The notes under the pieces were generated by a model. That model was not told the DNA's origin and searched no databases. It worked only from the letters and a program-made list of their open reading frames with translations. From Mobula hypostoma (lineage: Eukaryota): a stretch of DNA of 64,000 bases. The position numbers and the translations under genes were made by a program. Shown here piece after piece: positions 1-63,500 of the stretch. The stretch covers positions 168,642,001 to 168,706,000 of the forward strand of contig NC_086097.1 of assembly GCF_963921235.1 (NCBI RefSeq), in the 5' to 3' direction. Numbering within the stretch: the first letter of the stretch is position 1; each line of letters opens with the position of its first letter.

Positions 1-412
1 AATCCTTTTAGAATTTTACACGTTTCAATAAGATCCCCCCCTCAATCTTCTAAATTCCAGGGAGTATAAGCCTAGTCGATCCAGTCTTTCTTTATATGAA
101 AGTCCTGCCATCCCAGGAATCAATCTGGTGAACCTTCTTTGTACTCCCTCTATGGCAAGGATGTCTTTCCTCAGATTAGGGGCCTAAAACCGAACACAAT
201 ACTCCAGGTGTGGTTTCACCAAGGCCTTGTACAACTGCAGTAGTACCTCCCTGCTCCTGTACTCGAATCCTCTTGCTATGAATGCCAGCCTACCATTCGC
301 CTTTTTTGCCACCTGCTGTACCTGCATGCCCACTTTCAATGACTGGTGTACAATGACACCCAGGTCTCGTTGCACCTCCCCTTTTCCTAATCGGCCACCA
401 TTCAAATAATAA

Positions 413-983
413 GCAACACACATCAAAGTTGCTGGTGAACGCAGCAGGCCAGGCAGCAACTCTAGGAAGAGGTACAGTCGACGTTTCAGGCCGAGACCCT
501 TCGTCAGGACTAACTGAAGGAAGAGTTAGTAAGAGATTTGAAAGTGGGAGGGGGAGGGGGAGATCTGAAATGATAGGAGAAGACAGGAGGGGGAGGGATG
601 GAGCCAAGAGCTGGACAGGTGATTGGCAAAAGGGATATGAGAGGATCATGGGACAGGAGGCCCAGGGAGAAGGAAAGGGGGGAGGGGGGAAAACCCAGAG
701 GATGGGCAAGGGGTATAGTCAGAAGGACAGAGGGAGAAAAAGGAGAGAGAAAGAATGTGTATATATAAATAAATAACAGATGGGGTACGGGGGGAGGTAG
801 GGCATTAGCGGAAGTTAGAGGCGTCAGTGTTCATGCCATCAGGTTGGAGGCTACCCAGATGGAATATAAGGTGTTGTTCCTCCAACCTGAGTGTGGCTTC
901 ATCTTTACAGTAGAGGAGGCTGTGGATAGACATGTCAGAATGGGAATGGGATGTGGAATTGACATATCAGAATGGGAATGGGA
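413..983 (-). mobile_element. Penelope-like element (GIY-YIG) 3' fragment inserted in CR1
   Basis: Minus strand encodes SHSHSDMSIHSLLYCKDEATLRLEEQHLIFHLGSLQPDGMNTDASNFR*; same family as 33091-34466; flanked by attcaaataataa (400-412) / attcagataataa (984-996). Confidence 0.9.
475..512 (-). ncRNA. Minimal type I hammerhead ribozyme motif in Penelope-like 3' region
   Basis: Minus strand reads uaguc-CUGACGA-agggucucggccu-GAAAC-GUC-gacug: conserved core, stem I aguc/gacu, stem II agg/ccu, palindromic ACGU replacing stem III. Confidence 0.8.
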
Positions 984-2059
984 ATTCAGATAATAATCTG
1001 TTTTCCTGTTCTTGCCACCGAAGTGGATAACCTCACATTTATCCACATTAAGTTGCATCTGCCATGAATTTGCCCACTCACCTAACCTATCCAAGTCACC
1101 CTGAATCCTCTTAGCACCCTCCTCACAGCTAACACTGCCGCCCAGCTTCGTGTCATCCGCAAACTTGGAGATGCTGCATTTAATTCCCTCATCCAAGTCA
1201 TTAATATATATTGTAAACAACTGGGGTCCCAGCACCGAGCCTTGCGGTACCCCACTAGACACTGCCTGCCATTCTGAAAAGGTCCCGTTTATTCCCACTC
1301 TTTGTTTCCTGTCTGCCAACCAATTCTCTATCCACATCAATACCATACCCCCAGTACCATGTGTTTTAAGTTTGCACACTAATCTCCTGTGTGGGACCTT
1401 GTCAAAAGCCTTTTGAAAATCCAAATATACCACATCCACTGGTTCTCCCCATCCACTCTACTCGTTACATCCTCAAAAGATTCTATGAGATTCATCAGAC
1501 ATGATTTTCCTTTCACAAATCCATGCTGACTTTGTCTGATGATTTCACCGCTTTCCAAATGTGCTGTTATCACATCTTTGATAACTGACTCTAGCATTTT
1601 CCCCACCACCAATGTTAGGCTAACTGGTCTATAATTCCCTGGTTTCTCTCTCCCTCCTTTTTTAAAAAGCAGGGTTACATTAGCCACCCTCCAATCCTCA
1701 GGAACTAATCCAGAATCTAAATAGTTTTGAAAAATTATCACTAATGCATCCACTATTTCTTGGGCTACTTCCTTAAGCACTCTGGGATGCAGACCATCTG
1801 GCCCTGGGGATTTGTCTGCCTTTAATCCCTTCAATTTACCTAACACCACTTCCCTACTAACATGTATTTCCCTCAGTTCCTCCATCTCAATAGACCCTCG
1901 GTCCCCTACTATTTCCGGAAGATTATTTATTCAATGCAGTACTTGAAAGAGCTCTGGAATTGATCTCAATTCTCTGGCCTTTCCATTCTCAAAAGAATTG
2001 CCTAACCTACCACAATTTAGCTCACACAGTCTTGAGAAGTAATATTGGAACTTGTGGGC

Positions 2060-3411: not shown

Positions 3412-4131
3412 TCATGAAGTGAGACTAGAAACCTTAATTTCAGTCAAGCGAGCAGGAACCTTAATTGGATGTGTTACCTGAAAAGGGCAATGGAGCAAGA
3501 GAATTTCATTCAGCTAAACAGAACTGAAATGATTGTTAAAAAGGAAACATTAGCAGGCCTCTTGAGAAAATGGCTGATTGGATGGTTCTGACAAAGAGCT
3601 AGTGCTTCATAAGGAACGAAATGATCTCCTTTGTGGTACATGTGGACAAGGGGAAATTCATCTTTACCTGACGTCATTAAACACACATCAATGCAGTCGT
3701 GTTGAAATGATAGATATGGCATCATGCATCACAGTTGAACGGATTTCTGTAAGCAGTTAGAACAAACAGCCATCACCACATTGTGCTTTAAGCTCTACGG
3801 TTTTGTTCTGTAAACTGACAACAGAATACAACAAGTACACAAAATATTCCACTTCAGACACAAGTGACCACCATCTCTTTTTTTTTAAAAAATCACCACA
3901 CTCTGTTCCTTTTTGTAATTTAGAATGAATTCCCAAGACCATGGTCCAATAATTCAGCAAGAATGACTCACTAACTGCAGCTTGCTCATGTAGTGTGGAC
4001 CCAACAACAATGTTTGCAGTGGGTGGGGAGGTTTATAGCAAAATACCAGGCTGTGTGAATGAGACTGCCTGATTTTGAGGAATGATATCCTCCGGCACTA
4101 AATAATTACTTCAGTGGTGACTCACCTTGTG

Positions 4132-4725
4132 TCATCATCATCATCAGGTGCCCAGCCCAGTTTGAGCTTTGACTGCCATGGCCCACACACTCCTGTTTCG
4201 GGTCAAGTGGATCAAATCATTGGTATTCATTTCCAGCTCTCTGCCTGCTGTCTCCATTATCATTTGTCTGTCTTCCTCTTGCTTTCTTCCCTTCAATCTT
4301 TCCCATAATTAACATGCATTCTAATTCCTCTTTCCTAATCACATGTCCAATGAAGTTACGTTGCCTTTTCATGATCTCATACATTACCTCTTTTTGTGTT
4401 TGCTCTGTTCATAACATCCTCGTTAGATATTCGTTTCGTCCATGATATTCTTAGCATCCTCCTCAAAAACCACATCTCTGCTGCTACAATTCGTTTCATG
4501 TTACTAGATATTGTCCAACATTCTGAGCCATATAACATAACTGGATAAACGTAACATTTCAGTACTCTGAGGCAGGTTGTCATGCCTAGGTTAGTATTGG
4601 TCAGTATACTCTTCATTCTCGTATTTTGCCATCTCTATTCTTCTTTTGATGTCCAAGTCGCACCTGCCCTCTGATGTCACCCAGCTTCCTAAGTAGCAAA
4701 AGTTCTGTACTTGTTTTATGTCTTG
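4132..4725 (-). mobile_element. RTE-clade LINE 3' fragment
   Basis: ORFs give FCYLGSWVTSEGRCDLDIKRRI and YVYPVMLYGSECWTI..AAEMWFLRRMLRISW; (TGA)n tail on minus strand at 4132-4146. Confidence 0.85.
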
Positions 4726-5218
4726 CTGTGGTACCATTTCCTGGATGGTAGCAGCTGGAACACTTTGTAGTTGGGGTGACTCGGGTCCCCAACGATCCTT
4801 CAGGCCCATTTTACACACCTGTCTTTGTAAATGTCCTGAATAGTGGAAGTTCACATCTACAGATGCACTGGGCTGTCCGCACCACTCTCTGCAGAGTCCT
4901 GCGATTGAGGGAAGTACAGTTCCAATACCAGGCAGTGATGCAGCCAGTCAGGATGCTCTCAATTGTGCTCCTGTAGAAAGTTCTTAGGATTTGGAGGCCC
5001 ATACCAAACTTCAACCACCTGAGGTGAAAGAGGTGCTGTTGTGCCTTTTTCTCGACACACCCGGTAAGTACAGACCACGCGTGATCCTTGGTGATGTTTA
5101 TGCCAAGGAACTTAAAGCTGTTCACCCTCTCAACCCCAGATCCATTGATGCCTGTCTCCATTCCTCCTCCTTGACAACCAGCTCCTTTGTTTTTGCGACA
5201 TTGAGGGAAAGGTTGTTA
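4726..5218 (-). mobile_element. Rex1/Babar LINE RT C-terminal fragment
   Basis: ORF 4811-5161 VERVNSFKFLGINIT...KKAQQHLFHLR...FYRSTIESILTGCITAWY. Confidence 0.85.
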
Positions 5219-5859
5219 GACAGCTGCACAATTTACAAAGCACCCAGAGGTGTGGGGTGGGGTGGAGAGGGTGGTGGAAATGTTGGGCACAGAATACAAC
5301 AGCTATAAAATGATAGCAGCATAAGTCTGGTCTCTGACAATGAGCTGTTTGAGTGAATTACAAAGCTTCTGCTAGATTATTTTTTCTAGAATTCCTCCTG
5401 CTCATTATTCTCTAGGTAATTGGGCTGCAGAGTAAAAGATTAAACCCATTACTTCTGTGCACACAGATACTGACCACTCAGACAGCGAGGACAAGAATGA
5501 GCAGCAGGGATTATCAATGCTTGGTAACCACCATTTCTGCACCCCGCCCCCCACTCAGTCCCTTCAAAGCAGCTCCGTCCCATCTCAACATGGCAGCTGC
5601 TCTCTGTTCTCAGTAAGCATCGCAGGGGAGCCATCCTGCTCAATTTACTTGAAAACCACCTTCCTAGGAGGTTCTAACTCCTACCACATTCCTCACTGGC
5701 CTTTAGTGGTTGGATCTCCTCGATGATTTGCGATCAGTGACGTCAGCAGATGTTGTCCCAGGCAGCACTGAACAGTCAGCATTTAAAATATGCAAGAAAA
5801 ATGTATAAACTAGTGAGGACTGCACAAGCAGCAGTTGGATATTAGCATAGTTGACAAGC

Positions 5860-6960
5860 CACTTACATTTATGTAGTTCTTTTAATGCGATAAACTACCC
5901 ACCTCAGCAAACAAAACTTGACAAGCCACATAAGGAGATGTGGCAGATGGCCTAACACTGAGCAATAGATTTTAAAGAGACTGAAAGGAGGAGAGGCAGT
6001 GAGAACAGAACAGTACAGCACAGTACAGGCCCTTCAGCCCACAATGTTGTGCTGATCTTTTAACCTACTCCAAGATCAATCTAACCCTTCTCTCTCACAT
6101 GATCCTCCACTTCTCTTTCATCTCTGTGCCCATCTAAGGGTCTCTTAAATGTCCATAATGTATCAGCCTCTATCACTACCCCTGGTAGCTCGTTCCATGC
6201 ACTCACCATTAAAACCTACCTTTGATACCCCCGGTCCAATACTCTCCTCTTTAAAATTATGCCCCTTCAGATTAACCATTTCTGCCCTGGGAAAAAGGTG
6301 TTGGTTTTTCCACTCTATGATTCTTAACATCTTATACACCTCTAACCCTCTTTCGCTCCAAACAGAAATGCCCTAATTCACTCAGCCCTTCCTCATAAGA
6401 TGCTCTCTAATCTAGGCAGCAACCTGGTAAATCTCCTCTACACCTTCTCGAAAGCTTCCACATTCATATAAAGAGGTGACCAGAACTAAACACAATACTT
6501 GGGGTTAAGGGCTATTAGAGGAGATGGTGAGTTGGAACAGTTGGTGAGGTGGAACATGTACATTTAATTGCCTGGGATTGGAGGAATGCAGATGTGTGGG
6601 ATGGTTGCGAGGGAGGAGGGGATTACTGCGAGGGAAATGCTAGATTGTGGAGAATTTAAAAATGATGACTGAATTATAAAATAGAGATGCTGTTTAACCC
6701 AGAACCCATGTAGATTTGCAAACTATAAAACATGACAGGTGACATAACAGAGGGCAAGTCAGGACCCAAGAGCAGAAGTTTTGGGTGACCTCATGCGTGG
6801 AAGGAGGACTGCGAGACAAGGAAATGTCTATCAGACTAGTAGAGGTAACAAGGACATGGGTGACCAGTGATACCAGCAGTGTTGGGCTGTAGAAACTAAA
6901 TATAGAGATGAGCAAAGTTAAATTGAGGGTGGAATGCAAATAGTTTTGTAGAGGATATGG
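5860..6960 (-). mobile_element. Old L2-like LINE remnant interrupted by CR1
   Basis: Diverged L2-like 3' end (ttacatttatgtag..., ttttaaagagactgaaaggaggagagg) continuing after 6500; recognised by eye only. Confidence 0.45.
6003..6498 (-). mobile_element. CR1 LINE 3' fragment
   Basis: Reverse complement of CR1 tail gaacagtacagcacagtacaggcccttcagcccacaatgttgtg, ending at ...gaccagaactaaacacaatact. Confidence 0.8.
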
Positions 6961-7879
6961 ATTGAGAAGAACTTGCTCGTTCACATGCATGAGCCTTTGA
7001 AAGTGGTAGAACCAGCTGATAACCTGTTATCAAGGGAGTACTGAGCACTTATAACTAGAGATACAGGTACAAAAGGCAAAGGGCGTTTCCTGATGAGCTC
7101 TACCACCCAGAAGGAAACAGCTGGCGGCAGTGTTCAGAACTGGCACCACAGGATTGAGGGAGGATAGCGTAATTTAAATGTTTAAATTGCCTTGTTTATT
7201 ATTAGAAGCTCAAAAGCATAGGACTAGAGTAATTTAAACAAGCCAATTTAAGATCAAGATGACCCGCTGAGTTCCTCTAGTGCTTTGCGTCTCTCTGTTG
7301 GTCTAATTTGCCATTTTAAATAGGACACTGTGGTATTGCATTGAGAATGCTCCTGTTCCTCCGGGAAGGAAGGCAGGGTCCAAACAGAAAGCAGATTGCA
7401 TGCGGCTCCAATGGGAGACACTACAGCTGAAATCCAGAGTCACAGCCAGGGGTACTTCAGAAAGCAACATTGCTTTAAGACGTTTTAAAAAAAATCAATA
7501 CTCAAAAAATCGGCGGATCCCGGACTGCAGACTCAAGTCATGAGTGTAGTTCCCCCTTAAGAAAACTAGTGTGGAAGCCAAGCTGCTCCATAGGTACAAT
7601 TGAAATGTAGATGCTTTAGATTCTTCTCCCCCCACCCCCAACTATCTGCTGGTGAATGTATTGTCTCTGGAAACTAACATTAAAGACCTCTGAGCAAGAG
7701 TGTTGTACCAGAGGGATATCAGAAATTCGGTACATTTTGCTCCATGGAAACATGGCTATCCCCCGCCATTTAAAATGCAGCGCCGCAGCTGGACTGCTTC
7801 ACCATTCTCTGCAAAGACAGGACAGCTCAGTCTTTTAGAGGCAGAGGAGATGGAGTATGCTTTATGATTAACTCATTAC

Positions 7880-10150
7880 GGTGCACAGATGTGGCAATCT
7901 GTCTTAGTCCTGCTCACCCAACCCAAAACAACTAGTAGTCAAACGTTGTCCTTGTTATCTGCCGAGGGAGTTTTCAGCCATCACCCTGGTAGTGGTGCAC
8001 ATATCTTAGGCCAGCGTCAGGTAAGCTCTGGAGGAACTGAGCACTGTAATCAACAGGTACGATTACTGATGCCTTCCCTGTCACTGTGGGGGACTTCAGC
8101 CAGGTCAGCTTGAAGACTCTGAACTACCACCATCATACCACCTAAAGAACTAGGGATGCTAACACACTTGACCACTGTTATATCACCATCAAGAACACTT
8201 ACTGAGATATCCTACACCCACACTTTGGAAAGTCCAGTCACCTGACTGTACTCCTACTCCCCCAGTATGGGTAGAGACTCATGACTGCAGCACCAGTGAT
8301 GAGGAGCAAGCTGAGGTAAAGGGGGGTGGAGGAGTGTTTACAGGACTGCTTTGAGTCAATGGACTGGACAACTTTCAATGATTCATTTTTGAATCTGAAT
8401 GAATGCAGCATACGTGTCACAAACTTCTATCAAAACCCGTACGGCCCAGTATGTGCCTTCAAGAACATACCTGGCATACTCAAACAAAAAACTGAGGATA
8501 AACCAGGACATTCATAGTCTACTGAGGGCAAGATCTGTAGCATTCAAGACTGGTGACCCAAAACTATACAAGAAGTCCATCTATGGCCTGCAGAAGGCTA
8601 TTTTAAGAGCAAGAAAACAATTCCAATTGAAGTTCAAGATGGAATCGGATGCACATCAGCTCTGAAAGAGTTTGCAGTTCATTACTTCCCACAAAGCAAA
8701 ACCTAACATCATGAATGACTGTGATATCTCACTCCCAGATGTGAACACCTTTTTGCATGTTTTGTAAGGTAGAATAAAACTACACCTGAGTTAATCTCTG
8801 CAGCATCTGGTGACCATGGGATCTTTGTCTCTGAAGCTGACATCAGAACATTTTTCAAGAGGGTAAACAACTAGGCCCTGATAGAGTACCTGGTAGGGCG
8901 TTGAAAACCTGTACCAACCAACTGGCAGGAATGTCCAACAAAATCATCAATCTCCAACCGCTGCTGTCGGAGGTTCCCACCTACTTCAACAAGGCAATAA
9001 CCATACCAGTGTTGAAGAAGAGTAGGTTGAATTGCCTCAACAACTATCACAAAGTGGCATTCACATCTACTATGGTGAAGTGCTTTGAGAGGTTAGTCAT
9101 GGGTAGAATCAACTCCTGCCTAAGCAAAAACCTGGACCCTCTGCAATTTGCCCATCACAATAGGTCTACAATGGATCCAATCTCACTGGCTCTCCACTCT
9201 GTCTTGTATCACCCAAACAATTGTAATACTTACATCAGACTGCTGTTTATTGACTACAGCTCAGCATTCAACAATCATACCCTCACTTCAAATCAGAAGG
9301 CTCCAAAACGTAGGCCTCCTTACCTCTCTCTGCAGCTGGATCTTTGACTTCCTCACCAGGAGACCACAGCCTGTGTAGATCGAAAATAACATCTCCTTCT
9401 CACCGAGGATCAACACCTGTACACCTCAAGGATGCGTGCTTAGCCCACTGTTTTACTCTCTCTACAAACAGAAGAAAGAAGAAAGCCCTTAACTCCGAGT
9501 GGAGTCATTGGGACGCCGTCATGATGGTGTTTTTTTTTTTAGCAGGCTTTCTTATTTTTATGAGGCCGAGTTGCTAGCTCGACGCTCAAACCGGCACGGA
9601 TGGAAAACGTGCAAGGGAGCCGGCTGGATTTGAACTCGGGAGCCTTCGCTCCGAAGTCCGGCGCTGATGCCACCTCGCCACCAGCCGGCACCCACAGCTC
9701 AAATGCAGTCTATAAATTTGTCAACAACTACTTTTGTCAGATACACAGAAGGTGACAAGGAGGCATACAGGAGTGAGATAAATCAGCCGACTGAGTGGTG
9801 TCATAGGAACAGTCTTGCACTCAATGTCAGTGAGAGGAAGAAATTAATTGTGGACTTAAGGAAGAGGAAATTGAGGGAACACATACCAGTTCTCATCTAG
9901 GGATCAGTAATGTAAAGGATGAGCAATTTCAAATTCCTGATTGTCAACATCTGCAAAGATCTATCCTGGGCTCAACATATTGATGGAATTACAAAGAAGG
10001 CACAACAGTGGCTTTATCGCATTGGGAGTTTGAAGAGACTTGGTATGTCATCAAAGACACCAGCAATTTATTAAGAAGGCACAACCGTAGCTATATCACA
10101 TTAGGAGTTTGAAGACACTTGATATGTCACCAAGACACCGGCAATTTATA
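7880..10150 (+). mobile_element. Degraded Rex1/Babar LINE (endonuclease remnant plus RT)
   Basis: ORFs LQDCFESMDW, LNNYHKVAFTSTMVKCFERLV, LDPLQFA, YIRLLFIDYSSAFN; many frameshifts. Confidence 0.85.
9467..9689 (-). mobile_element. tRNA-derived SINE inserted in Rex1/Babar
   Basis: Minus strand starts gccggctggtggcgaggtgg (A box)...gagttcaaatcc (B box); CpG-rich; ends in a (ttc)-rich tail. Confidence 0.8.
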
Positions 10151-10508
10151 TATTTGTTTATTTATTTACAGATGCACCATGGAATTTGTTGCCACAGAGG
10201 GCTATGGAGGCCAAGTCTTATGTGTATTTAGTGAAGATTGATAGATTTTTGATTGGTAAGCGGGTTAAGGAAGGAGGGAGAGAGATTGGTGTTGAAAATA
10301 AAAGTCAGCCATGATTGAATGCCAGAGCAGACTCAATGGCCTGAGTAGCCCTATTCTGCTTCTACATCTTGAGGATCTGTTCGTAAATTCTTCTGCTGCA
10401 GACATTTAAAATATTTTAATATGAACACAAATAATTTATTATTAGAACCAATTATTTTAAATAATATAAATAAAAATAGCAGTATATAATAATAGCAGTA
10501 TAAATAAT

Positions 10509-10639
10509 GTGTGCGCGAGCGTATGCCCTTAACTCCTAGTGGAGTCGTCGGGGTGCCGTCACGACAAGCTTGTCGGTATGCTCATTGTACGGCATGTCTT
10601 AGGCATCTGAAACCTGGCGGAGCCCATCCCTCTTCAGGT
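10509..10639 (-). mobile_element. Short retroposed insertion sharing its 3' end with the SINE at 9467-9689
   Basis: gcccttaactcctagtggagtcgtcggggtgccgtcacga matches 9484-9523; 10-bp TSD tataaataat (10499-10508, 10640-10649). Confidence 0.7.
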
Positions 10640-10939
10640 TATAAATAATATTAAAAAGTAATAAATAATTTAAAGGAGCAAAACAAAAGAAAATAAGAGA
10701 AGATGAGAGACCACAGTTGCTGAAATCTGAAGCAAAAGAACAACCTGCTGGAGGAGCATCTGCGGAGGCAGACAATGGCTTCAACTTCAGAACCAAGGTC
10801 ACATCAACCTCATTCAGACAGTACACAGACAGAGTGTGTGTATGCAAGTGCAGAAAAATGTAAATGTATGCATGCCTGTGTGTGTATAAATGTTTGGATG
10901 CAGAAATCTAAGCCTTTAATGACTCACTCAATGGAACAC

Positions 10940-11400: not shown

Positions 11401-12859
11401 ACTCAAAAACTATACTGTAATCAGTTGGAAGCAACACAGCCCTGTCACTCTTTACAAGATAAAATAAGCTATTTACCTGACCTTCAAAGGCTATTCTTTA
11501 AATACATTATTTGATAAGCAGACAAGGCTGAGAAAGCAATACATAAATACTTCCTACAACAAGCCTTTGTTAATGGAATGACTTAACCATCATCATTATT
11601 GTGTGTTTGGACTGATGTGTCAAGTCCCTGAAATGTTTCATGCCTGCAAAGTCTGGCATTTTAAGGTGTGTTCAATATAACCTTTTAAGTTTATTTACAT
11701 ATTAAAAACAATTAAAAAAAACATATCCACAATGGGAAAAACTTCAGCCTGATCTGCAAAATTGGTTAAGAATGAATATGACATGTGAAATAATTAATTT
11801 GATGTGCTTCATTCCACCTTCAATCCCAAGATTGCATTAAAACATGCAAGTAATTCTTGTGCCAGTTACTGATACATTGCTTTCATTTAAGAGTTATGAA
11901 GAAAGCTTTACACAGCTGAAGTCCCACAACCTCATTGCCAAAGACAATGAAAATATTTTGAAATCTCTGGATTGCTTTTATTTTTCAAAATGGCTCCGCT
12001 GATGACAGCCAATCCAAGTCAGTTATCCCATTAACTACCTCAGACCTGAGGGGAAAACTGTAGCAGAACAAAGCAGCCACAGTGCTGAGACTCTCCCCCA
12101 TTGTCCGACACAAGCACACACTGGAACGGAGTGTGAAGTGCAAGGGAAAATGGTGCTAACATTGAAAGTGCAGTGGACTGCAAGCTGCTTTAAGGATAGA
12201 GGAATGCAAACTATGTGAGCAACCCCATAAAAACGCCAAAGGTAGGCGGTAGAAACCAGCACCCTTCAGATGTTAGTTGGCTTACAGAGCAAGTGATTCC
12301 CATCTCCAGGAAGTACCCATGGCACAACAACATAAACAGCGAATAATGTACATTTGCTCTGCCCACACTCTCCATATGCCCTTCACCCACGCACTACTCC
12401 CACTAGCTCCCCTCCCCATCCCTCTTCCTTTATTTCATGCTTCACTTTCCTCTCCTCATATTTCATCTTCAGCCCTTTGTCACTTCCACCTAGCTTCTGA
12501 CATTGTCCCCTCTCCCCCCAGCTAAATTCTCTCATCACTTGCTGGCTCTTGCACCATCCCTTCCCTCCACCTTTTCTCTACATTGGCCACCTCCCCTCTT
12601 TCTTTCCATTCCAGATGAAGAGGCTTGGCCCAAAATAACAACTACCCATTTCCTTCTACAGATGCTGCCTGACCTGTTGAGTTCCTCTCATGCTTTGTGT
12701 GTCTCTGTTGGTCTAATTTGCCATTTTCCCCATTTTTTATTGGACACTGTAGTGTTGATATCTGAAGGAAGGCAAGGTCCAAATGGAAAGGAGATTTGGA
12801 CACCCAGCATTCACTTGCCATTACGCTGATGAGTTCAAGGAACAGAGTAATGATATGCT

Positions 12860-14320
12860 GAAATGTATCAATATTATGAAAGAGGTGCTGTAGGTAGTCT
12901 TGTAGCATGTATACCTTCGAGCCTGACCAAGTACATCTTGGGATGTTGCGGGAAGCGATCTCCCTCATATCCTCATTAACAATGGGAAATCTATTAGAAG
13001 GCCGGTGAGAGACTAATATTGTGCTTTTAATAAGGAAGTCAGCACAGTGAGGCCAATGAACTACAGGCTACTGAACCTTACATCAGTTATGGAGAAGTTA
13101 CTGCAGGGAAATCTGAGAGACTGCATTTATTTACATTTGGAAGAGCAAGGTAATTTCTCCCAACTCCTACTTCTCTCCTTCTATTCCTCATTCTGGTTGC
13201 CCTCTCACCCCTCCTTTTCTCCACATCTGCCTATCACCTCCCTCTGGTTCCCCTCCTCCTTCTCTTTATTCCATGGTCCACTGTCTTCTCCTACCAGATT
13301 CCACTTTCTTCAGCCCTTTACCCCTTCTACCTGTCTCCTCCCAGCTTCTTACTCTTCCTGCCCCCCCCCACACCAAACCTGGTCTCAACTATCAGCTTGT
13401 ACTCCTTTCCTTCTCCACACCACCTTATTCTGGCTTTTCCCCCCTTCTTTTCCAGTCCTGAAGGGTATCACCCTCCACAAATGCTGCCTGACCTGCTGAG
13501 TTCAAGGGTAGGGTAGTAGATGTATTCTACATGGATTTTAGCAAAGCCTCTGTCACGGTTCCACATGGTAGGTTGTTCCAGAACACACGGGATCCAGGGA
13601 GAGCTAACCAACGGGATGCGGAATTGGCTTGGTGGTAGAAGGCAGCGTGTGGTAGTAGAGGGTGGTTTTTCCAGATGATCAGTGGTGTGCCGCACTGACC
13701 AGTGCTTGGTCCTGTGTTGTTTGTCAATTTATTAATGATTTATATGAAAAACATAAGCAGTGCACTTACCAAAACTGGTGGTGGAGGAGAATGAAAGAAC
13801 AGTCTGAAGTTATAATAGGGTATCAAGCTGAGCAAAGGAACAGCTGATAGAGTTTAAACTCAGCCAAGTGTGCTGATACATCTTACAAAGATAAACACAG
13901 CCAAGACATACACAGTGAATGGCAAGGCCCGGGGAAGCATCACTGAACAGTAACAGCAAGTACTTAGTTCCCCGAAACTGGCTGAAAAGCGACGTTACAG
14001 GGGTACCGAAAATTATGAGGGGCACAGATGAGGTAGGCAGTACAGTCTTCTCAGGGTTAGGAAATCTGAAACTAGTTGGCAGAAAAAAGTTCAAGGTGAG
14101 AGGGGAAAGATTCTCACAGAGAGTGGTGAGCAAATGATACAAATTATCAGAAGTGATAGAGGCAGCTGCATTTGCATTTAATAAAACATTTAAACACATA
14201 CAAGGATAAGAAAGATTGGGCCAACTCTAGGTATATGTGACAAGCTTAGACAGGCATCTTTGTTAGCAAGTGCGCGCGGGGCTGAAGGAACTGTTTCTGT
14301 GCTGTACATTTCTATGAATC
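12860..14320 (+). mobile_element. Degraded CR1 LINE with Penelope-like 3' fragment (~13150-13503) inside
   Basis: NYRLLNLTSVMEKLL, tacatggattttagcaaagcc, CR1 3' tail; pyrimidine-rich PLE-like insert ending gctgcctgacctgctgagttc. Confidence 0.75.
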
Positions 14321-15299: not shown

Positions 15300-15585
15300 T
15301 TATTTATTTAGTGATACAGCACGGAGTTGGCCCTTGGAGCCCCACAGTCCCAGCAAACCCTGACAGACCCAATTAACCCTAACCTAATCACGGGACAATT
15401 TACAATGGCCAATCAACCTACCCAGTAGGGCTTTGGAATGTGAGAGGAAACCAGAGGACCAGGAGAAAACTCGCACACTCCACAGGGAGAACGTACAGAG
15501 ACTCCTTACAGAACAGTGCCAGAACTGAACTGCAAAATGTCCCGAGCTATAATAGCATTGCACTAACTGCTCAGCTACCGTGCAC
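15300..15585 (-). mobile_element. V-domain SINE (HE1-like)
   Basis: Reverse V domain tgtgagaggaaaccagaggaccaggagaaaactcgcacactccacagggagaacgtac followed by tRNA-like head; related copies at 23515, 45810, 61175. Confidence 0.8.
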
Positions 15586-19732: not shown

Positions 19733-21535
19733 AACATGAGAAAATTGCAGATGCTGGAAATCCAAAGCAACATACATAAAATGCTGGAGGAACTAAGTCG
19801 GCCAGGTGCATTTATGGAAAACACTAAACAGTTGATGTTTCGGGCCGAGACCCTTCATCAGGACAGGAAAGAAAGAGAAGTCAGAGTAAGAAGGTTGGGG
19901 GGGGTGAGGAAAAAGAAGTACAAGGTGACTGGTGAAACAGGGAGAGGAGATGAGGTGAAGTAAAGAGCTGGGAAGTTGATTGGTGGAAGAGATAAAGGGC
20001 TGGAGAAGGGGGAATCTGATAGGAGAGGACAGAAGACCATGGAAGAAAGGGGAGGAGCACCAGAGGGAGGCAATGGGCAGGCAAGGAGATAATGTGAGAG
20101 AGGGAAAAGGGGATGGGGAATGGTGTAAGGGAGGGGCAATAACTGGAAGTTCAAGAAATCAATGTTCATGCCATCAGGTTAGAGGCTACCCAGACAGAAT
20201 ACATGGTGTTGCTTCTCTAACCTGAGTGTGGCCTCATCACGGCAGTAGAGGAGGCCATGGACTGACATGTCAAAATGGTAATGGGAAGTAGAATTGAAAT
20301 GTATGGCTACCAGGAAATCCCACTTTTTCTGGTGGATGGAGTGAAGGGGCTCGGCAAAGCATTCTCCCAGTCTATTGGGTCTCACTGATGTACAGAAGGC
20401 CACACCGGGAGCACTGAATACAATAAATGACCCCAACAGACTTACAGGTGAAATGTCACCTCACCTGGAAGGACTGTTTAGGGCCCTGAATGGTAGTGAG
20501 GGAGGAAGTGCAGAGGCAGGAATAGGACTTGTTCTGTTTGCAAGGATAAGTACCAGGTGGGAGATCAGTGGGGAGGGACTAGTGCACAAGGGAGATGGGC
20601 AGGGGGTGATCCCTGCAGAAAGAGGAATGTGGGGGGTGGGATCCCACTGGAGATTGTGGAAGTTACGGAGAATTGTGTGCTGTATTCAAATGCTGGTGGG
20701 GTGGTAAGCAGGGGCAAGAGGAACTCTATCCCTGGTGTGGCGGCAGGAGGATGGGGTGAGGGCAGATGTGCACGAGATGCAAAAGATGCAGGTGAAGGCA
20801 GCATTGTAGGTGTAGGAAGGGAAGCCCTTTTCTTTGAAGGGTTATCTTAGTTCTGGAATGAAGAGCTTCATCCTGAGAGCAGATGCGGCAGAGACGGAGG
20901 AACTGAGAGAAGAGGATGGCACTTTTACAAATGACAGGGTGGGAAGAGGTATAGTCTAGGTAGTTGTGAGAGTCAGTGGGTTTATGAAAGATATCAGTAG
21001 ATGGACTGTCTGCAGAGATAGAGACAGATCGAGAAATGTGAGGGAGGTGTCAGAAATGGATCAGGTAAATTTGAGGGTTGTGGGGAAGTTGAGGCAAAGT
21101 TGATGAAATTGATGAGCTCAGCATGGGTGCAGAAAGCAGCACTAATGCAGTCAATGTAGCACATAAACAGTTGGGGAATGATAGCAATGTAGACTTAGAA
21201 CATAGACTGTTCCATGTAGCCAACAAAAAGGCAGGCATAGCTAGGACCCATGCGAATGCCCATGGCTACACCTTTCATTTGAAGGAAGTGGGAGGAGCCG
21301 AAGGAGAAATTATTGAGGGCGAGGACCAACTCCGCCAGGAGAGTGGTGGTGGTGGATGAGGGGATCTGGTTGGGTCCGTTTTCCGGAAAGTAGCGGAGAG
21401 TTTTAAGGGTCTCCTGATGGAGAATGGAAGTGTATAGGGACTGGACATCCATAGTGAAAATGAGATGATCAGGGCCAGGGAGCTTAAAGAAATTGAAAAG
21501 ATTAAGAGTGTACTAAGTGTCACAGATGTAGGTAG
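19733..21535 (-). mobile_element. Penelope-like element, RT plus GIY-YIG region, degraded
   Basis: MDVQSLYTSI..LVLALNNFSFGSSHFLQMKGVAMGIRMGPSYACLFVGYME; RLGECFAEPL..VAIHFNSTSH..LGSL. Confidence 0.9.
19829..19866 (-). ncRNA. Hammerhead ribozyme motif (diverged copy)
   Basis: Minus strand cuguc-CUGAUGA-agggucucggccc-GAAAC-AUC-aacug. Confidence 0.65.
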
Positions 21536-26590: not shown

Positions 26591-28479
26591 GACCTATAGT
26601 AACAGTATACAACAGAGTAGTGTCTGCTGTATTGAACTTGCACACCAATCTTTGTCTTACTTCTTCCTGACCTCATGGAGAAGATATTTGGGTCAGCGAC
26701 ATTGTCTTTCTGCTTTTTGATGACCTGGCCAGTGATTTCATTTTACCCAAGATGCACTTAGAATAGCAACAAAGAATCTGATTAGAGTTGTCTTGAACAC
26801 TTAACCGCATTTCTTTCAGCCCACACTTTCTCAGAAACTGTAGGAAGCATGTCACAAAGGTAAATCTGTATTGTTCTGCAAGCTCTGGGTGCTCTTTGTT
26901 AGTGATTTGCATTCCATGGTTATTTCTCAGCTTCTCAGGAATTTGTTGTTGTGTGGAATCACTGTGGTTAGTGTAGCGCCAAGGTTTCCCATTCTTCAGC
27001 TCCCACAGTGTGCCACTAATACACAACTCACCTACCCTTATTGTTTGTTAAACTCTTAGAGCCTAGTATCCCATTTTGAGGCATTTGCTTGCATCTCTGG
27101 GGCGCAATGATTCTGGATCCAAACTAACAGACCATCACTGGCTGACCAATAGCACCTTGCATCTGTCTGTGTGTCTTTCACCTTTTCAGGTCTCCCCCAT
27201 GTCATTCACTGACAGTATCTCAATGACTCCTGTGTTTCTCAGTCTCCTCTCAGATACTCACACACATCTCTCTTCTCTCCTGAAACTCTCACCTTTAGTT
27301 TTTCCTGCAGTGATACTTGGAGTATCCTCAATGCACTCTTTGCCTGATTTAGACTTCAGAATTAAAGCCACAGCTCAGCAGTCTAATCTTATCAGATTCC
27401 TCATTCAGCCCTTTACTTCTTCACCTATCACCTATCAGCTTCTTGTATCATTCCCTCCCTCACCCACCTTCCCCCCTCATGTGGGCTCACCTATCACCTG
27501 TACTCATTTTATTCTGTCTTCTGCCCCTTCCTTTCCAGTCCTGATAAAAGATCTCAGCCTGAATCATTCACTGTTTATATCCCTCCACAAAATTCTGCCT
27601 GACCTGCTGATTTTGTGTGTAATATGTAGTTATAGACTCACACAGCATGGGAACAGACCCTTTGGCCCAACCCTTCCACACCAACCAAGGTTTCTACCTG
27701 AGCAAGTCCCAGGTGCTTGTGTTTGGCCCATATTCCTCAATACTTCCCCAATCCATGTGCTAGCATCTGCAGAATCTTGCATTAGCAGTCTTGTTGGTGG
27801 CCAGTTTCAACACTGGAAGGACGCCAGGTTACTCCAAGAAACAGGATCAGCCCAGGGCTAGCTGAGAGATTTCAAACCCCAACAACCTTCCATAAACCCA
27901 GCAATAATGTCCTGGAAATCCTAGAAAATTTAATGATGAAAAGAGATTCATTTATCCGTCCTGCCTGCTCCTACACTTCCCGCTACAGAACCCACTTTGG
28001 ATCCAACACAGTGTTCCTGTGTAGATTTCTTCTGGAGGTCAGTGATCAATTGCTACTACATCTTTTTCCTCATATAGGCAAGGTGTGAAATTCCTCAGAT
28101 CCATGCCCATTACTAAAACGTCCCTTTCCATGTTGGTGCATCTCATTTCTATTGATGCAGGTGCCTTAGACACAAAGACCACCAGCCCATGACCTTGTTC
28201 TACAGCTGCTACCACACCTCTCACAGAAACAGCTACGTGCACTGTAAATTCAGACGGCTACACATCTCCCAAGGGAGAAGTTAATACTTAACTTATACTT
28301 ATGATCAAAGATCAAAATGTTCCTTGTAGAGAAGTTTTAACTGTTCCATTGAGCTGGCAAACATTAAAGGAAGTTTTTCAATTGTGACTTATGTGAGATT
28401 TCCCACAAATTGACACCTTGACCCCACAGATGGTGACTGTAAATAATTAAAGGAAGCATATCTATAGTGCCTTGAAAAC

Positions 28480-33090: not shown

Positions 33091-34466
33091 GCAACACATA
33101 TAAAAATTGCTGGTGAACGCAGCAGGCCAGGCAGCATCTCTAGGAAGAGGTACTGTCGACGTTTCGGGCTGAGACCCTTCTTCAGGACTAACTGAAAGAA
33201 GAGCTAGTAAGAGATTTGAAAGTGGGAGGGGGAGGGGGAGATCCAAAAAGATAGGAGAAGACAGGAGGGGGAGGGAAGGAGCCAAGAGCTGGACAATTGA
33301 TTGGCAAATGGGATATGAGAGGATCATGGGACAGGAGGCCCAGGGAGAAAGAAAAGGGGGAGGGGGAGAAAAAAGCCCAGAGGATGGGCAAGGGGTATAG
33401 TCAGAGGGACAGAGGGAGAAAAAGGAGAGAGAGAGAGAAAAAAAAAGAATGTGTATATAAATAAATAACAGATGGGGTACGAGGGGGAGGTGGGGTATTA
33501 GCGGAAGTTAGAGAAGTCAATGTTCAAGCCATCAGGTTGGAGGCTACCCAGACAGAATATAAGGTGTTGTTCCTCCAACTTGAGTGTAGCTTCATCTTTA
33601 CAGTAGAGGAGGCTGTGGATAGACATATCAGAATGGGAATGGGATGTGGAATTAAAATGTGTGGCCACTGGGAGATCCTGCTTTCTCTGGCGGACAGAGC
33701 GTAGGTGTTCAGCAAAGCAGTCTCCCAATCTGCGTCAGGTCTCGCCAATATATAGAAGGCCACATCGGGAGCACCAGACGCAGTATATCACCCCAGCCGA
33801 CTCACAGGTGAAGTGTCGCCTCACCTGGAAGGACTGTTTGGGGCCCTGAATGGTGGTAAGGGAGGAAGTGTAGGGCATGTGTAGCACTTGTTCCGCTTAC
33901 AAGGGTAAGTACCAGCAGGGAGATCGGTGGGGAGGGATGGCGGGGGACGGGGACAAATGGACAAGGGAGTCGCATAGGGAGCGATCCCTGCGGAAAGCCG
34001 GGGGGGGGCGGGGAGGAGGGAAAGATGTGCTTAGTGGTGGGATCCTGTTGGAGGTGGCGGAAATTGCGGAGAATTATATGTTGGACCCGGAGGCTGGTGG
34101 GGTGGTAGGTGAGGACAAGGGGAACCCTATTCCTAGTGGGGTGGCGGGAGAATGGAGTGAGAGCAGATGTGTGTGAAATGGGGGAGATGCGTTTTAGAGC
34201 AGAGTTGATGGTGGAGGAAGGGAAGTCCCTTTCTTTAAAAAAGGAGGACATCTCCCTCGTTCTGGAATGAAAAGCCTCATCCTGAGAGCAGATGCGGCGG
34301 AGACAGAGGAATTGCGAGAAGGGGATGGCGTTTTTGCAAGAGACAGGGTGAGAAGAGGAATAGTCCAGATAGCTGTGAGAGTCAGTAGGCTTATAGTAGA
34401 CATCAGTAGATAAGCTGTCTCCAGAGATAGAGACAGAAAGATGTAGAAAGGGGAGGGAGGTGTCGG
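33091..34466 (-). mobile_element. Young 5'-truncated Penelope-like element (GIY-YIG endonuclease region)
   Basis: Minus strand CESAGVIYCVWCSRCGLLYIGET..LGDCFAEHL..ATHFN..LGSLQPDGLNIDFSNFR*; TSD aaatatctgat (33080-33090, 34467-34477). Confidence 0.93.
33153..33190 (-). ncRNA. Minimal hammerhead ribozyme motif
   Basis: Minus strand uaguc-CUGAAGA-agggucucagccc-GAAAC-GUC-gacag. Confidence 0.78.
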
Positions 34467-38145: not shown

Positions 38146-40583
38146 TCTCTTTCCCAGTTCTAACAAAGGGTTGCCAGCCTGGTTCTCTCCACAGACGCTG
38201 GCCAACCTGTGAGTATTGCCAGCACATTCTACTTTCATTTTCCATATCCAGCACAATTTTATAAATGCACAAGCAAGAATTTTTTTTATAAATGTGCAAG
38301 CAAGCATTAAGCAAATACAGTTTTGTTCAAAGGTTTTCCTGGGAGTGAAGGTATGGGAAAGAGATCCTCAGGGGTTCGTTAGAGATCACAAAGCTGCACA
38401 TCTCCTCTCCAGTCTTTGTGAATTACTCACGGGATAAAACCTGTCACTGGAAATCAATCATTGTGAAGAAACCTTGCCTCCTCGGTGTTGCACATTGCAC
38501 CAAGATGAATTATTGAAGCCACTTAGAAATACATATACAAACACACATTTTTAAATGCACAAATAGAATACACAGATCTGAGAACTGGCAGACTATTGCA
38601 AGGTCAAACCGAAACCTTCATTCAGTTTTGTCTTCACTCCCACAAGTATTCCCTGTCCTGTTGACTTTGAAAGCTTCTTTTGTTTCATGAATATTAGGTT
38701 TCTTACACCTATGTTATTTTGTTTTAGTTATAACTATCCCTCACTCAAAGACACACACACACACACACAGAATAAACAGGCAGCCAGCCTCAACAGGTGA
38801 AGTCTCTCTGGTCTCCTCCCCAGGGATCAGCTGACAGTCTGTCAGAAACCACAGCACATTCACACTACCACATCCCGAGTGCACAGGCTCATTATAAAAT
38901 CTGCACTCACTCTGCAGAGCACAACAGAATAATGGGGAGTGGGGGAGGAACAAGCAGTGCTGTTCTACTCCAAATCCTCCAGCTGATCTGTGACAGAAAA
39001 CCCACTCACTGCCTAATCATTGGACAATGTCAAAATAAGTTCAAAGTAAAATTATGTATATATTACCATATACCACCTTGTGATTCATTTTCTTTCAGGC
39101 ATTTACAGGGGAAAAAGGAACAATAAAATTTATGAAAAACTATACACAAAGACTGAAAAACAACTAACGTGCAAATGAAGATTTATTGTGCAAATAAAGC
39201 AATTACTAACAACCTGAGTTGCAAGAGTCCTTGAAAGTAAGTCTGTAAGTCACAGAACCAGTTCATAGTGGTGATTGAAGCTGTCTACACATGTTCAGGA
39301 GCCAGACAGTTGCAGGGTAATAAGTGTTCTTGAACTTAGCGGTGTCAGACCCAAGGCTCCTACCTCTCGCCCGATGATAATAGCAAGGTGACGGCACGGC
39401 CTGGAATGTGACGGTGTGGAAATAAGAAGAATCTTTCCAATAATAAACAGTTTTAGTGTCAAGGAGACCAAGAAACTGCAGATGCTGCATTGTGGAGCAA
39501 CAGACAAGAAACTGGAGTAGGTCAGCGGGTCAGGCAGCATCTGTAAAAGGAAATGGCCATGCGTCGCTTTGGGTTGGGACCCTTCATGTGTAACAAAAGA
39601 TCAAAGGTGAGATAGGCCAATGTAAAGAGGTGAGAGGGAGGGGTGCAGCAAGAAATAGCTAGCAATAGGTGGATCCAGGTCAGAGGGGTGATGGGAAGGG
39701 AAGAGTGGAAATGTCAAAGAGCAGGAGGAATCAGAGGGGGAGCATTAAGAGGGCATTAGCAGCAAGTCTGTTTCAGACTCTACTCCATGAGGAGTATGAG
39801 GAGATTTGGTTACATCACAAAATATTCCCATGAAGTTCTATATATGTACGGTTGTATGTCATGTAGCATTCAATAGAGAGGATCACAAAGAGGCTCAGAG
39901 GTATTTAGACTTAACCTGCTCCATCACAGGTACAACCCTGCCCAAAACTTTGAGGACATTCTCAAAAGGTGACGCTTCAAGGTGGCGTTCATCAATAAGG
40001 GCCATCACCATCCAGGACAAGCTTCCTCCTTGTTACTATTATCAGGGGAGGTCACACTGGAGCCTGAAGACCCACACTCTAACTCAGAAATGGTTTCTTC
40101 CCCTCCACTAATAGATATCCAAAATGGTCCATGAACAACACCTCATTATTCCTTTTCTTGAAATCATTTATTTAGTCAGCAATTTATTAAAACAATATAA
40201 TACAGCAAACATTAGTGGGAAGTAAGAGGATTAGGAATCTTTTAAAAACCAGCTGAAGGCAACTAAAAAAAATGAGAGAAGATGAAATAGTAAGATAACT
40301 TAGCCAATAAAATCAGAGGATATCATAAGTTTTTTCTCTCATATATAAAGAGTAAAAGAGTCAAGACTGGATAGCGGACCACTGGAAAATTACACTGAAG
40401 AGTTAGTATTGGGAAGCAAAGAAATGGCAGATGAACTTATTAAATATTTTGCGCCAGTCTTCACTTTGAAGACACTAGCAGTATGCCAGAAATTCAAGTG
40501 TCGGGGTGGAAGCGAGTATAGCTGCTATCATCAAGGAAAAGGTACTTGGGAAGTTGAATAGTCTGAAGGTAGACAAGTCAATT

Positions 40584-43863: not shown

Positions 43864-44045
43864 GCAACACACACAAAATGATGGGGAAACTCAGCAGGTC
43901 AGAAAGCATCTACATCCTGATGAAGGGTCTCAGCCTGAAATGTCAACTGTCTACTTGCATCCAAAGATGAAACCTGACCTGCTGAGTTCCTCCAGCATTG
44001 TGTGCGTTGCTGAAGATTTCCAGCATCTGCAGAATCTTGTGTCTC
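43864..44045 (+). mobile_element. Short Penelope-derived foldback unit containing a hammerhead motif (43912-43950)
   Basis: Arms gcaacacacacaaaatg..aactcagcaggtcag / ctgacctgctgagtt..cattgtgtgcgttgc flank CTGATGA-agggtctcagcct-GAAAT-GTC. Confidence 0.75.
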
Positions 44046-59875: not shown

Positions 59876-60070
59876 CAGACACAACAGACTGCAGATGGAG
59901 CAACAAATCTGCTGAAGGAACTCAAGCGGGTCAAGCAGCATCTGCGGGAGGAAAGGAATTGTCAATGTTTTGGGGTTGAAACCCTGCTGCAGGGTTTGGA
60001 TCCAAAATGTCCACAATTTCTTTTCTCCCACAGACAATGCTCGACCCACTGAGTATATCCAGCAGATTGC
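59876..60070. repeat. Penelope-tail-derived foldback (imperfect ~170-bp hairpin)
   Basis: aatctgctg..actca..gggtc..agca..ttttgg..aaaccctgc|tgcagggttt..ccaaaa..tgct..gaccc..tgagt..cagcagatt, symmetric about ~59986. Confidence 0.7.
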
Positions 60071-60829
60071 TTAGATGAGTTTTTTAAAGTAATGTGGTCA
60101 TCGCAACTAACACTAGATGCTTTTTCTTTTAAAGTGTCTGATTATCAAGCAACCTTCAATTGGATAGCTGCCACGGAGGGATTTGAACTTGGGTCTATGG
60201 ACTTTTAGCAAAGCTCTAACCCTCCTCCCACTGGTACTTGCCTGCAGTGAGTCAGGAGGCCAACAAAAGTGAACGGAATATGGAACAAGTGTCTAGGAGG
60301 TGATAGCAAACTTTATCCCCTTATTTTGTTTGGTTCCCACTCCCTTTCCCTGGACAAAGTTAGAAGGGGTCACCAATAAAAATCCTAGCACCATCATTTG
60401 TGGGAATAGGAAATCAGCCTGCATTGTGATGCTTTTCCTTATCCTTGCCGCTGATTAAGCATTGTTGTTAAATGTTAAACCATGCAGTAACCTAGTAAAA
60501 CAAAAAAGCCAAGTGCTTTGGAATAAGCACAAGCTGGACGAACTCAGTGGGTCAGGCAGTATCTGTGAAGGGAAATGGAGAAACAATTATTGGGTCAAAA
60601 CCCTTGATCTAGACATCATAACAACGACCAAAGCCATCAACTGTGGCTCCTTCGGAGCTTTGCCCATGATTTTTATCAGTCACAGTCAAAGAAATCACTC
60701 CTGAAATCCTACACATAGATCAAGTGTAAGAGATGGACCAGATTTCATTAAAATTTGATTAAACAACAGGAAAGATGGGAATGTAGTAGAAATTGCCATG
60801 GGATAATCAGCATTTCAACAAAAGCTTAC

Positions 60830-63094: not shown

Positions 63095-63500
63095 GGTGAT
63101 GTCATGTTGTATCTGTTCAAAATATTGATAAAATCACACTTGGAGTATTGTGTACAGTTTTGGTCACCATACTACCGGAAGGTTGGATTAGCAATTGAGA
63201 GAGTGCAGAAGAGATTCACCAGGATATTGCCTGGACTAAAGGGCCGTGGTTACAAAAAGAGATTAGTTCTCCAGTCCTGATGAAGGGTCTCAGCCCAAAA
63301 CGTTGACTGTACTCTTTCCCATAGATGCTGCTGGGCCTGCTGAGTTCCTCCAGCATTTTGTGTGTGTTGTACAGGTATTTAGATAGAAAGGCATAAAGGG
63401 ATATAGGCTTTATATGAGCAAATTGTAGAAGCATAAATAGGCACAGTTGGCATGGATGCAATGGGCCAAATGACCCATTTTTGCACTAAATGATTCTATT
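63095..63500 (+). mobile_element. Degraded CR1 3' fragment with ~100-bp Penelope-derived hammerhead unit (63268-63370) inside
   Basis: HLEYCVQFWSPYYRK..RVQKRFTRILPGL; insert cagtc-CTGATGA-agggtctcagccc-aAAAC-GTT-gactg...cagcattttgtgtgtgttg. Confidence 0.8.

What the first reader, a model, noticed from the sequence alone, without database searches (positions are those of the whole stretch)
475..512. Minimal hammerhead ribozyme motifs recur in Penelope-like 3' regions (475-512, 19829-19866, 33153-33190, 43912-43950, 63272-63309)
Seen: each copy reads stem I (aguc) - CUGANGA - short stem II (ggg/ccc or agg/ccu) - GAAAC - GUC - stem I' (gacu), a few hundred nt downstream of the GIY-YIG stop codon in the long copies. 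Stem III is replaced by palindromic ACGU. The core is intact in the two youngest copies (475, 33153) and mutated, largely at CpGs, in the others. Established: Penelope-like elements carry minimal type I hammerheads in their pseudo-LTRs, thought to cleave as dimers through that palindrome. Inference: five or more motifs in 64 kb suggests a very large genomic pool of latent self-cleaving RNA motifs, and the three minus-strand copies would be in sense within a minus-strand host intron.
Basis: partly seen in the sequence, partly recalled or inferred. Interest (0 to 1): 0.7.

Follow-up and report, generated by a model that had tools for sequence, protein, structure and literature searches.

The report
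Penelope retrotransposon hammerheads in a ray
The five repeats are real but ordinary: they are the small hammerhead-ribozyme signature at the tail end of a very abundant Penelope-like jumping gene, a pairing already published, and these scattered, mostly decayed single copies are likely unable to cut RNA on their own.

Summary
Observation confirmed. All five 36-nt minimal type I hammerhead motifs are present (5 matches, 0 in 100 shuffles), three on the minus and two on the plus strand. Seven older remnants make 12 copies, 6 per strand.

Three motifs lie 280-310 nt behind the GIY-YIG end of 5'-truncated, Neptune-type Penelope-like elements. The best relative is a Mobula protein (93% identity). 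Two copies have 12-13-bp target duplications. Of 19 departures among the five motifs, 14 are CpG transitions. Contigs of four public runs show thousands of related pieces, with variation at CpG sites, N7, loop II or pair-keeping positions.

This is the published PLE minimal hammerhead (PMC4209133). I found no paper describing this ray family. The two intact cores lie 32.7 kb apart, so dimer formation in cis is unlikely. A PLE hammerhead tested in vitro needed protein (PMC11167929). No host gene was identified, so the sense-in-intron idea is unverified.

One open lead is an acceptor-like AG 17-20 nt behind the cut site. The scan already noted this family elsewhere in this genome (e1-9283810). 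Cleavage is untested. Interest is low.

The parts
476..511 (-). Minimal type I hammerhead motif, core intact, G10.1-U11.1 wobble; predicted cut between 480 and 479
413..983 (-). 5'-truncated Penelope-like copy (end of GIY-YIG region, stop at 807-805, pyrimidine-rich 3' UTR, motif, 63-nt tail) inserted into a CR1-like LINE
400..412 (.). 13-bp AT-rich target-site duplication, second copy at 984-996 (one mismatch); present once in the uninterrupted LINE twin near 29675
33154..33189 (-). Minimal hammerhead motif, core intact, private mismatch in the outer stem I pair; predicted cut between 33158 and 33157
33092..34466 (-). 5'-truncated Penelope-like copy: RT thumb region, C-x4-C-x2-C linker, GIY-YIG region (broken by frameshifts and a stop; end stop 33500-33498), 3' UTR, motif, tail; 12-bp target duplication at 33080-33091 and 34467-34478
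19830..19865 (-). Decayed motif of a second subfamily (G16.2>A, G1.1>A, stem I mismatch)
19742..21533 (-). Older 5'-truncated Penelope-like copy reaching into the RT core, with the longer form of the tail
43913..43948 (+). Decayed motif; stem I 5' strand replaced by the junction to an inverted tail arm (43863-43912); forward tail runs to about 44047
63273..63308 (+). Motif with G12>A (catalytic base lost) in a roughly 100-nt insertion that starts at the motif, inside a CR1-like LINE
33138..33152 (-). Pyrimidine-rich spacer ending in AG in front of the conserved tail (acceptor-like; AG in 9 of 12 copies; splicing untested)
12605..12702 (+). Older decayed copy of motif plus tail
   Evidence: E 5e-15
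13456..13504 (+). Remnant with most of the motif deleted
27532..27617 (+). Older decayed copy
   Evidence: E 1.5e-10
39473..39587 (-). Older decayed copy with long tail
   Evidence: E 2e-11
59899..60068 (.). Head-to-head inverted pair of decayed copies overlapping at the motif
60532..60615 (-). Older decayed copy
   Evidence: E 9e-6

Best explanation
The motifs are the minimal type I hammerhead carried at the 3' end of a high-copy Penelope-like retrotransposon family of rays, likely of the Neptune clade; the copies here are 5'-truncated insertions decaying by CpG mutation and are likely silent as ribozymes. Shown: motif anatomy, position behind the endonuclease region, target duplications, truncation, CpG decay, and that different subfamilies share the motif while flanks diverge. 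Inferred from published PLE work: in an active partial-tandem master element this 3' region also serves as 5' leader of the next copy. The motif folds into an active core only with help, either a second motif pairing through ACGU or the element's own protein, and cuts after GUC to process the tandem transcript. Reverse transcription starts in the tail 65-95 nt behind the cut site on uncut RNA, so even the shortest insertions carry the motif. Selection acts on the few masters, not on dispersed copies.
For: Best protein hits are ray and shark PLE proteins (93% identity to P0001, Mobula; full-length relatives carry RT, thumb and GIY-YIG Pfam domains). The linker motif C-x4-C-x2-C is present and is described for Neptune and Nematis. 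The motif fits the published consensus CUGANGAH-G...C-GAAAN-palindrome-NUH. Copies 33153 vs 19829, non-CpG identity: motif 25 of 28 (0.89), endonuclease 325 of 395 (0.82), tail 34 of 43 (0.79), 3' UTR 182 of 307 (0.59), spacer 8 of 16 (0.50) (one pair only). Loose ends in laid contigs pile up at both motif edges: 72-413 contigs per run at 33189 and 68-474 at 33155. Of 16 variant rows (3% or more) inside the motif, 11 are at CpG columns (N7 included), 2 in loop II, 3 keep or restore a pair, and none is at the 11 non-CpG core positions. All long copies run past the cut site into a tail of two length classes, as with the internal RT start of the anole element. In copy 475 the predicted monomer fold pairs core G5-G8 with the palindrome and C17, an inactive rod (-11.6 kcal/mol).
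Against: No cleavage was tested. Within the young subfamily the motif is not less variable than its flanks: 16 of 27 variant rows fall in its 36 nt, 0 in the 26 nt upstream and 11 in the 62 nt downstream (contigs were filtered at 80% likeness and drop rare variants). No two-sided compensatory change was seen; only one-sided U-G to U-A at the last stem II pair. Folding energies are no better than shuffles (z -0.12 to -1.42). The modelled active dimer (-11.1 and -14.5 kcal/mol) is less stable than the best inactive dimers (-31.5 and -20.7; the model has no tertiary terms). No full-length or tandem master was seen, so the 5' copy of the motif is inferred. Clade rests on the linker and on hits, not on a tree.
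Confidence: 0.82

Rival explanations
1. One reading: many dispersed intact copies do cleave inside host pre-mRNAs (in trans, with a distant copy, or with protein help) and so affect host transcripts.
For: A rough 53-79% of laid depth is unchanged at five CpG-prone critical sites. Twelve copies or remnants lie in 64 kb. In Xenopus, related HHR repeats are depleted from introns (bioRxiv 10.64898/2026.07.22.740005).
Against: Only 2 of 12 copies here keep an intact core, and they lie 32.7 kb apart. There is no strand bias (6 plus, 6 minus). No host gene was identified. Published monomers were inactive and dimers weak; 1 of 9 Xenopus dimers cleaved; no anole RNA-seq read ended at the cut site.
Confidence: 0.08
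2. The motif is kept mainly as a non-catalytic cis-element (protein-binding or RT-positioning fold, or part of a splice signal), with cleavage incidental.
For: Hammerhead mutants did not affect insertion of the anole PLE in vitro. Naiad and most Chlamys PLEs lack the motif yet proliferate. Acceptor-like AGs flank the motif.
Against: The invariant positions are exactly the catalytic ones, and N7 and loop II vary freely. The anole motif does cleave with protein, with C3/G8 rescue.
Confidence: 0.08
3. The short copies are an independent non-autonomous family (non-LTR retrozyme or SINE-like) rather than truncations of the Penelope-like element.
For: Some copies start at the motif or are inverted pairs (63272, 43912, 59899-60068). 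Opposite-strand joints at the motif's 5' edge occur in laid contigs of 3 of 4 runs.
Against: No tandem units contain the motif. Copies form a continuum of 5' truncation (about 1,790, 1,375, 571 and 100 nt). Inverted 5'-truncated arms are a described PLE insertion feature.
Confidence: 0.05

Closest known systems
Minimal hammerheads (min-HHR) of metazoan Penelope-like elements (Cervera and de la Pena 2014, PMC4209133; read: abstract, results, discussion, start of methods, part 2 of supplement file 2)
   Same: Type I, short helix I, CUGANGA plus an extra base before G10.1-C11.1, GAAA followed by a palindromic tetramer and NUH, U-rich flanks, mostly single motifs in truncated PLEs. The Crassostrea entry has nearly the same stems (GUC/GAC, GGG/CCC).
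   Different: Helix II is short (4 bp with a U-G pair). No cartilaginous fish is among the chordate rows I saw; searches of the held supplements for shark, skate, Callorhinchus and Leucoraja gave 0 (one file could not be searched).
PAc, Poseidon element of Anolis carolinensis (Frangieh et al. 2024, PMC11167929; read: main text and start of methods)
   Same: Hammerhead at the pLTR/ORF junction; genomic copies end in a tail downstream of the cut site, with two end classes; AT-rich target sites.
   Different: PAc is Poseidon clade and its ORF starts within the motif. Here the linker points to Neptune and the ORF start was not found. PAc was tested biochemically; this family was not.
Drosophila virilis Penelope (Schostak et al. 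2008, PMC2377424, passages; Cervera 2014)
   Same: [quoted passage not shown]
   Different: Its motif has a small helix III and a proven 75-nt intron. No splicing is shown here.
Non-LTR retrozymes (bioRxiv 10.64898/2026.07.22.740005; read: abstract, introduction, methods, part of results, passages)
   Same: Type I hammerheads related to PLE pseudo-LTRs; reported from one chondrichthyan.
   Different: Defined by tandem units that each hold the ribozyme; the copies here are dispersed and attached to PLE coding remnants.

Membership tests
PLE minimal hammerhead (min-HHR) | Core CUGANGA ... GAAA ... NUH in type I order with short helix I | tested here: met
   Copies 475 (4 bp) and 33153 (3 bp); decayed in the other three
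PLE minimal hammerhead (min-HHR) | Extra nucleotide between 9 and 10.1, and G10.1-C11.1 pair | tested here: met
   Extra A in 5 of 5; G-C in 3 of 5, G-U by CpG decay in 2 of 5
PLE minimal hammerhead (min-HHR) | No helix III; palindromic 15.1-16.1 tetramer | tested here: met
   ACGU in 3 of 5; CpG-decayed in 19829 and 43912
PLE minimal hammerhead (min-HHR) | Located in the terminal repeat region of a PLE | tested here: met
   3 of 5 lie behind RT/GIY-YIG remnants; the other 2 share the same tail. A 5' pLTR copy was not seen.
PLE minimal hammerhead (min-HHR) | Conservation and covariation of core and stems above flanks | tested here: inconclusive
   Higher than UTR and spacer between two subfamilies; not lower variation than flanks within one subfamily; only one-sided pair changes
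PLE minimal hammerhead (min-HHR) | Self-cleavage as dimer or with protein help | not testable with these tools
   Only contigs were available; they cannot show RNA ends
Neptune-clade EN+ Penelope-like element | RT followed by C-terminal GIY-YIG endonuclease in one ORF | tested here: met
   Order seen in copies 19742-21533 and 33092-34466 and in relatives
Neptune-clade EN+ Penelope-like element | CX2-5CxxC linker between RT and EN (shared with Nematis, absent from Penelope/Poseidon) | tested here: met
   C-x4-C-x2-C in copy 33153; definition from PMC8557442 passages
Neptune-clade EN+ Penelope-like element | RT phylogeny grouping with named Neptune references | not tested
   No named Neptune reference sequence was at hand; no tree built
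Non-LTR retrozyme | Tandem repeat with a hammerhead in each unit | tested here: not met
   None of 7 tandem-repeat rows overlaps a motif
Canonical hammerhead (Rfam models) | Three helices scoring against Rfam hammerhead models | tested here: not met
   No hammerhead hit at E <= 1

The most novel reading that the evidence does not exclude
In ray Neptune elements the hammerhead sits inside the element's own 5' leader intron, just upstream of a conserved 3' splice site (pyrimidine tract plus AG, 17-20 nt behind the cut site, kept across subfamilies although the spacer sequence changes). Cleavage would cut that acceptor off from its upstream intron, so the ribozyme would act as a switch between spliced messenger and the unspliced RNA that Penelope-like elements copy into the genome. 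Sense copies in host introns would then mainly donate cryptic acceptors.
Probability: 0.12. Interest if true: 0.6.

Novelty: new member of a known kind. Interest (0 to 1): 0.15.

Why it matters
As it stands it adds a cartilaginous-fish, probably Neptune-clade, example to a documented association, with an unusually dense pool (12 copies in 64 kb). That makes ray genomes a good statistical substrate for asking whether intact hammerhead cores are purged from the sense strand of introns. It would matter more if the flanking acceptor proved real, because why PLEs retain introns and what their hammerhead does are both open (PMC8557442, PMC11167929).

Tried and rejected
Whole genome: none held, so no genome-wide count or intron-orientation test.

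Rfam scan: 2 unrelated lncRNA-region hits, rejected as chance.

Collection scans with a degenerate family pattern returned 120 metagenome and 48 viral loci. 0 of 168 matched the family profile, a PLE protein or the stems, so all are chance matches and gave no covariation set.

Host gene: no convincing host exon among 109 minus-strand frames and 116 mostly plus-strand frames by Pfam. The only hits were a Tc1-like transposase and three weak hits at E 0.016-0.034. A crude exon scan gave 10 candidates, none recognisable. Exons in frames under 38 codons, in masked regions or without Pfam domains would be missed.

Sequencing runs: no RNA holder listed; X1 and X5 are only guessed to be RNA. All four laid runs are contigs, so the empty table of molecule ends says nothing on cleavage. 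No RNA-specific loose end at either acceptor-like site was among the rows shown, but 500 rows were not shown and contigs are a poor test.

ORF start: the AUG after the acceptor-like AG was considered as the element's start. None of the 31 relatives read begins with that peptide, none of the shark or ray ones is full length, and the frame is not kept between copies 33153 and 63272; unresolved.

The active-dimer energy for copy 63272 was mis-registered because G12 is lost, and was not used.

Lunse et al. 2017 (dimer cleavage) was not held; it is cited only through review PMC6765202 passages. PMC8782182 passages gave only the method.

Not-in-print statement rests in the open library and on supplement look-ups. 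Repbase/Dfam, subscription papers, one unreadable supplement file and bioRxiv supplements could already hold this family.

Full report
Observation. The five motifs are present at the stated places, three on the minus strand (475, 19829, 33153) and two on the plus strand (43912, 63272). A degenerate family pattern finds exactly these five with up to 3 mismatches and nothing in 100 shuffles; it was derived from them, so it only excludes chance. In register the motif is 36 nt: stem I strand AGUC, core CUGANGA, an extra A, a 4-bp stem II with a 4-nt loop, GAA, the palindrome ACGU, C17, and GACU. Copy 475 differs from this only by C11.1>U. Copy 33153 has an intact core but a mismatch in the outer stem I pair. 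Copy 63272 has lost G12. Copies 19829 and 43912 have lost the pair next to the cut site and have a changed palindrome. Of 19 departures, 14 are CpG transitions, and the 11 non-CpG core columns are invariant in all five. A profile built from the five finds seven further decayed copies and one inverted tail arm at E < 1e-4 (three weaker rows were left out); the reversed window gives at best E 1.2. The 12 copies split 6 plus and 6 minus. Rfam does not detect the motif.

Context. Three motifs end 5'-truncated Penelope-like elements: 413-983, 33092-34466 and about 19742-21533. The translations show an RT core remnant (Pfam RVT_1, E 4e-4, below the curated cut-off), the thumb region, a C-x4-C-x2-C linker and a VIY...YIG endonuclease region, all broken. 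The best protein relatives are from rays and sharks (93% identity to P0001, Mobula hypostoma; full-length invertebrate-like relatives carry RT, thumb and GIY-YIG domains). So the window is likely from a myliobatiform ray. The linker is described for the Neptune and Nematis clades (PMC8557442 passages); no tree was built. The motif lies 294 and about 309 nt behind the endonuclease stop in copies 475 and 33153, and about 280 nt behind the equivalent point in 19829, which lacks that stop. Copy 475 sits in a CR1-like LINE with a 13-bp AT-rich target duplication; copy 33153 has a 12-bp one. Copy 63272 starts at the motif. Copies 43912 and 59899-60068 are inverted arrangements, a described PLE feature. 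No tandem array contains the motif.

Related sequence. No genome was held, and the metagenome and viral scans gave chance matches only (0 of 168 loci). Contigs from 4 of the 24 listed runs were laid on copy 33153. On the 131-nt stretch 3,444 to 18,381 contigs per run were laid. Of 27 variant rows at 3% or more, 16 fall in the motif: 11 at CpG columns (including N7, which is C in 65-84% and U in 12-26% of depth), 2 in loop II, 2 that keep a pair (G-U at 1.3, U-A at the last stem II pair), and 1 that restores the pair lost in the reference copy. None is at a non-CpG core position. Against my reading, the 26 nt upstream have no variant row and the 62 nt downstream have 11, so within this subfamily the motif is not better conserved than its flanks. 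This fits neutral decay after insertion, and the 80% likeness filter biases the comparison. Between subfamilies the picture differs. Loose ends pile up at the motif's two edges (72-413 contigs per run at 33189, 68-474 at 33155). Copies 33153 and 19829 share 25 of 28 non-CpG motif positions, against 182 of 307 in the UTR, 8 of 16 in the spacer, 325 of 395 in the endonuclease and 34 of 43 in the tail (one pair). A rough product over five CpG-prone critical sites leaves 53-79% of depth unchanged; depth is not copy number and contigs drop rare variants.

How it most likely works. Shown steps are anatomy, truncation and decay; the rest is inferred from papers. Cervera and de la Pena (PMC4209133; results and discussion read) found such motifs in the flanking repeats of PLEs and by the thousand as single motifs, with no monomer and weak dimer cleavage in vitro. 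The review PMC6765202 (passages) reports dimer cleavage and a need for tandem layout. Frangieh et al. (PMC11167929; main text read) showed that the anole PLE hammerhead cleaves only with the element's protein, is dispensable for insertion in vitro, leaves no RNA-seq ends at its site, and that reverse transcription starts internally at two sites downstream, giving the optional tail. The window fits this: the long copies run 65-95 nt past the cut site, with short and long tail classes, so the copied RNA was uncut there. Folding does not favour activity. With N7 = C the monomer pairs core G5-G8 with the palindrome, energies are no better than shuffles, and the modelled double hammerhead is less stable than inactive dimers (no tertiary terms). 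The two intact cores here are 32.7 kb apart. I therefore read the motif as functional in rare tandem masters and silent in these copies (0.82).

The large pool is real but already known in kind (about 4,000 in coelacanth, 9,000 in Xenopus). The minus-strand host intron could not be verified: no host exon was recognised, and there is no strand bias among the 12 copies.

Open lead. Here a pyrimidine tract plus AG lies in the stem I strand of several copies, as at the D. virilis intron end. A second acceptor-like site lies 17-20 nt behind the cut: the AG is present in 9 of 12 copies and the 15 nt before it are 67-93% pyrimidine. A different subfamily has another spacer sequence that is also pyrimidine-rich and ends in AG (loose ends at 33155). 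Against it: U-rich flanks belong to the published min-HHR consensus, the first AG doubles as stem I, and no spliced read was seen or properly testable. PLE leader introns are established (PMC2377424 passages); no paper in the library held all of Neptune, Penelope-like, hammerhead and splice acceptor. Probability of the splice-switch reading is about 0.12.

Verdict. A real, ordinary feature: a new member of a known kind. I did not find this ray family in the open literature searched, though repeat databases and unseen supplements may hold it. Interest 0.15.

Noticed in passing
P0004: A Mobula gene model named chitinase domain-containing protein 1 isoform X1 is almost entirely PLE sequence. It jumps from the endonuclease region to a short peptide that matches a reading of the motif's 3' half, which could be a modelled splice or a deletion. 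P0008 (Hypanus, divergent protein kinase domain 1C isoform X2) is likewise PLE sequence under a host-gene name.
   Followed up: no
window 43863-44047 and 59899-60068: Inverted (head-to-head) arrangements of the motif and tail. Opposite-strand joints at the motif's 5' edge also appear in laid contigs, one (33146 to 33188) at depth 630 and 1673 in X1 and X5 and absent from X19 and X20.
   Followed up: partly
window 36-1930 and 28740-30084: Two young CR1-like LINE copies in opposite orientation, 93-95% identical; the first is interrupted by the Penelope-like copy.
   Followed up: partly
window 16868-18379: Tc1/Sleeping Beauty-like transposon remnant with 60-nt inverted ends and HTH/DDE Pfam hits.
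   Followed up: no
window 921-983: A 32-nt tandem duplication at the 5' truncation point of the Penelope-like copy.
   Followed up: no
window 19830-19865: Two CpG decays (N7 C>U and G16.2>A) happen to keep the predicted inactive core-palindrome pairing; a single case, may be chance.
   Followed up: no
window 41148-42161: Minus-strand frames that look like a Tx1/L1-type LINE C-terminal region (label from recall; no Pfam hit).
   Followed up: no
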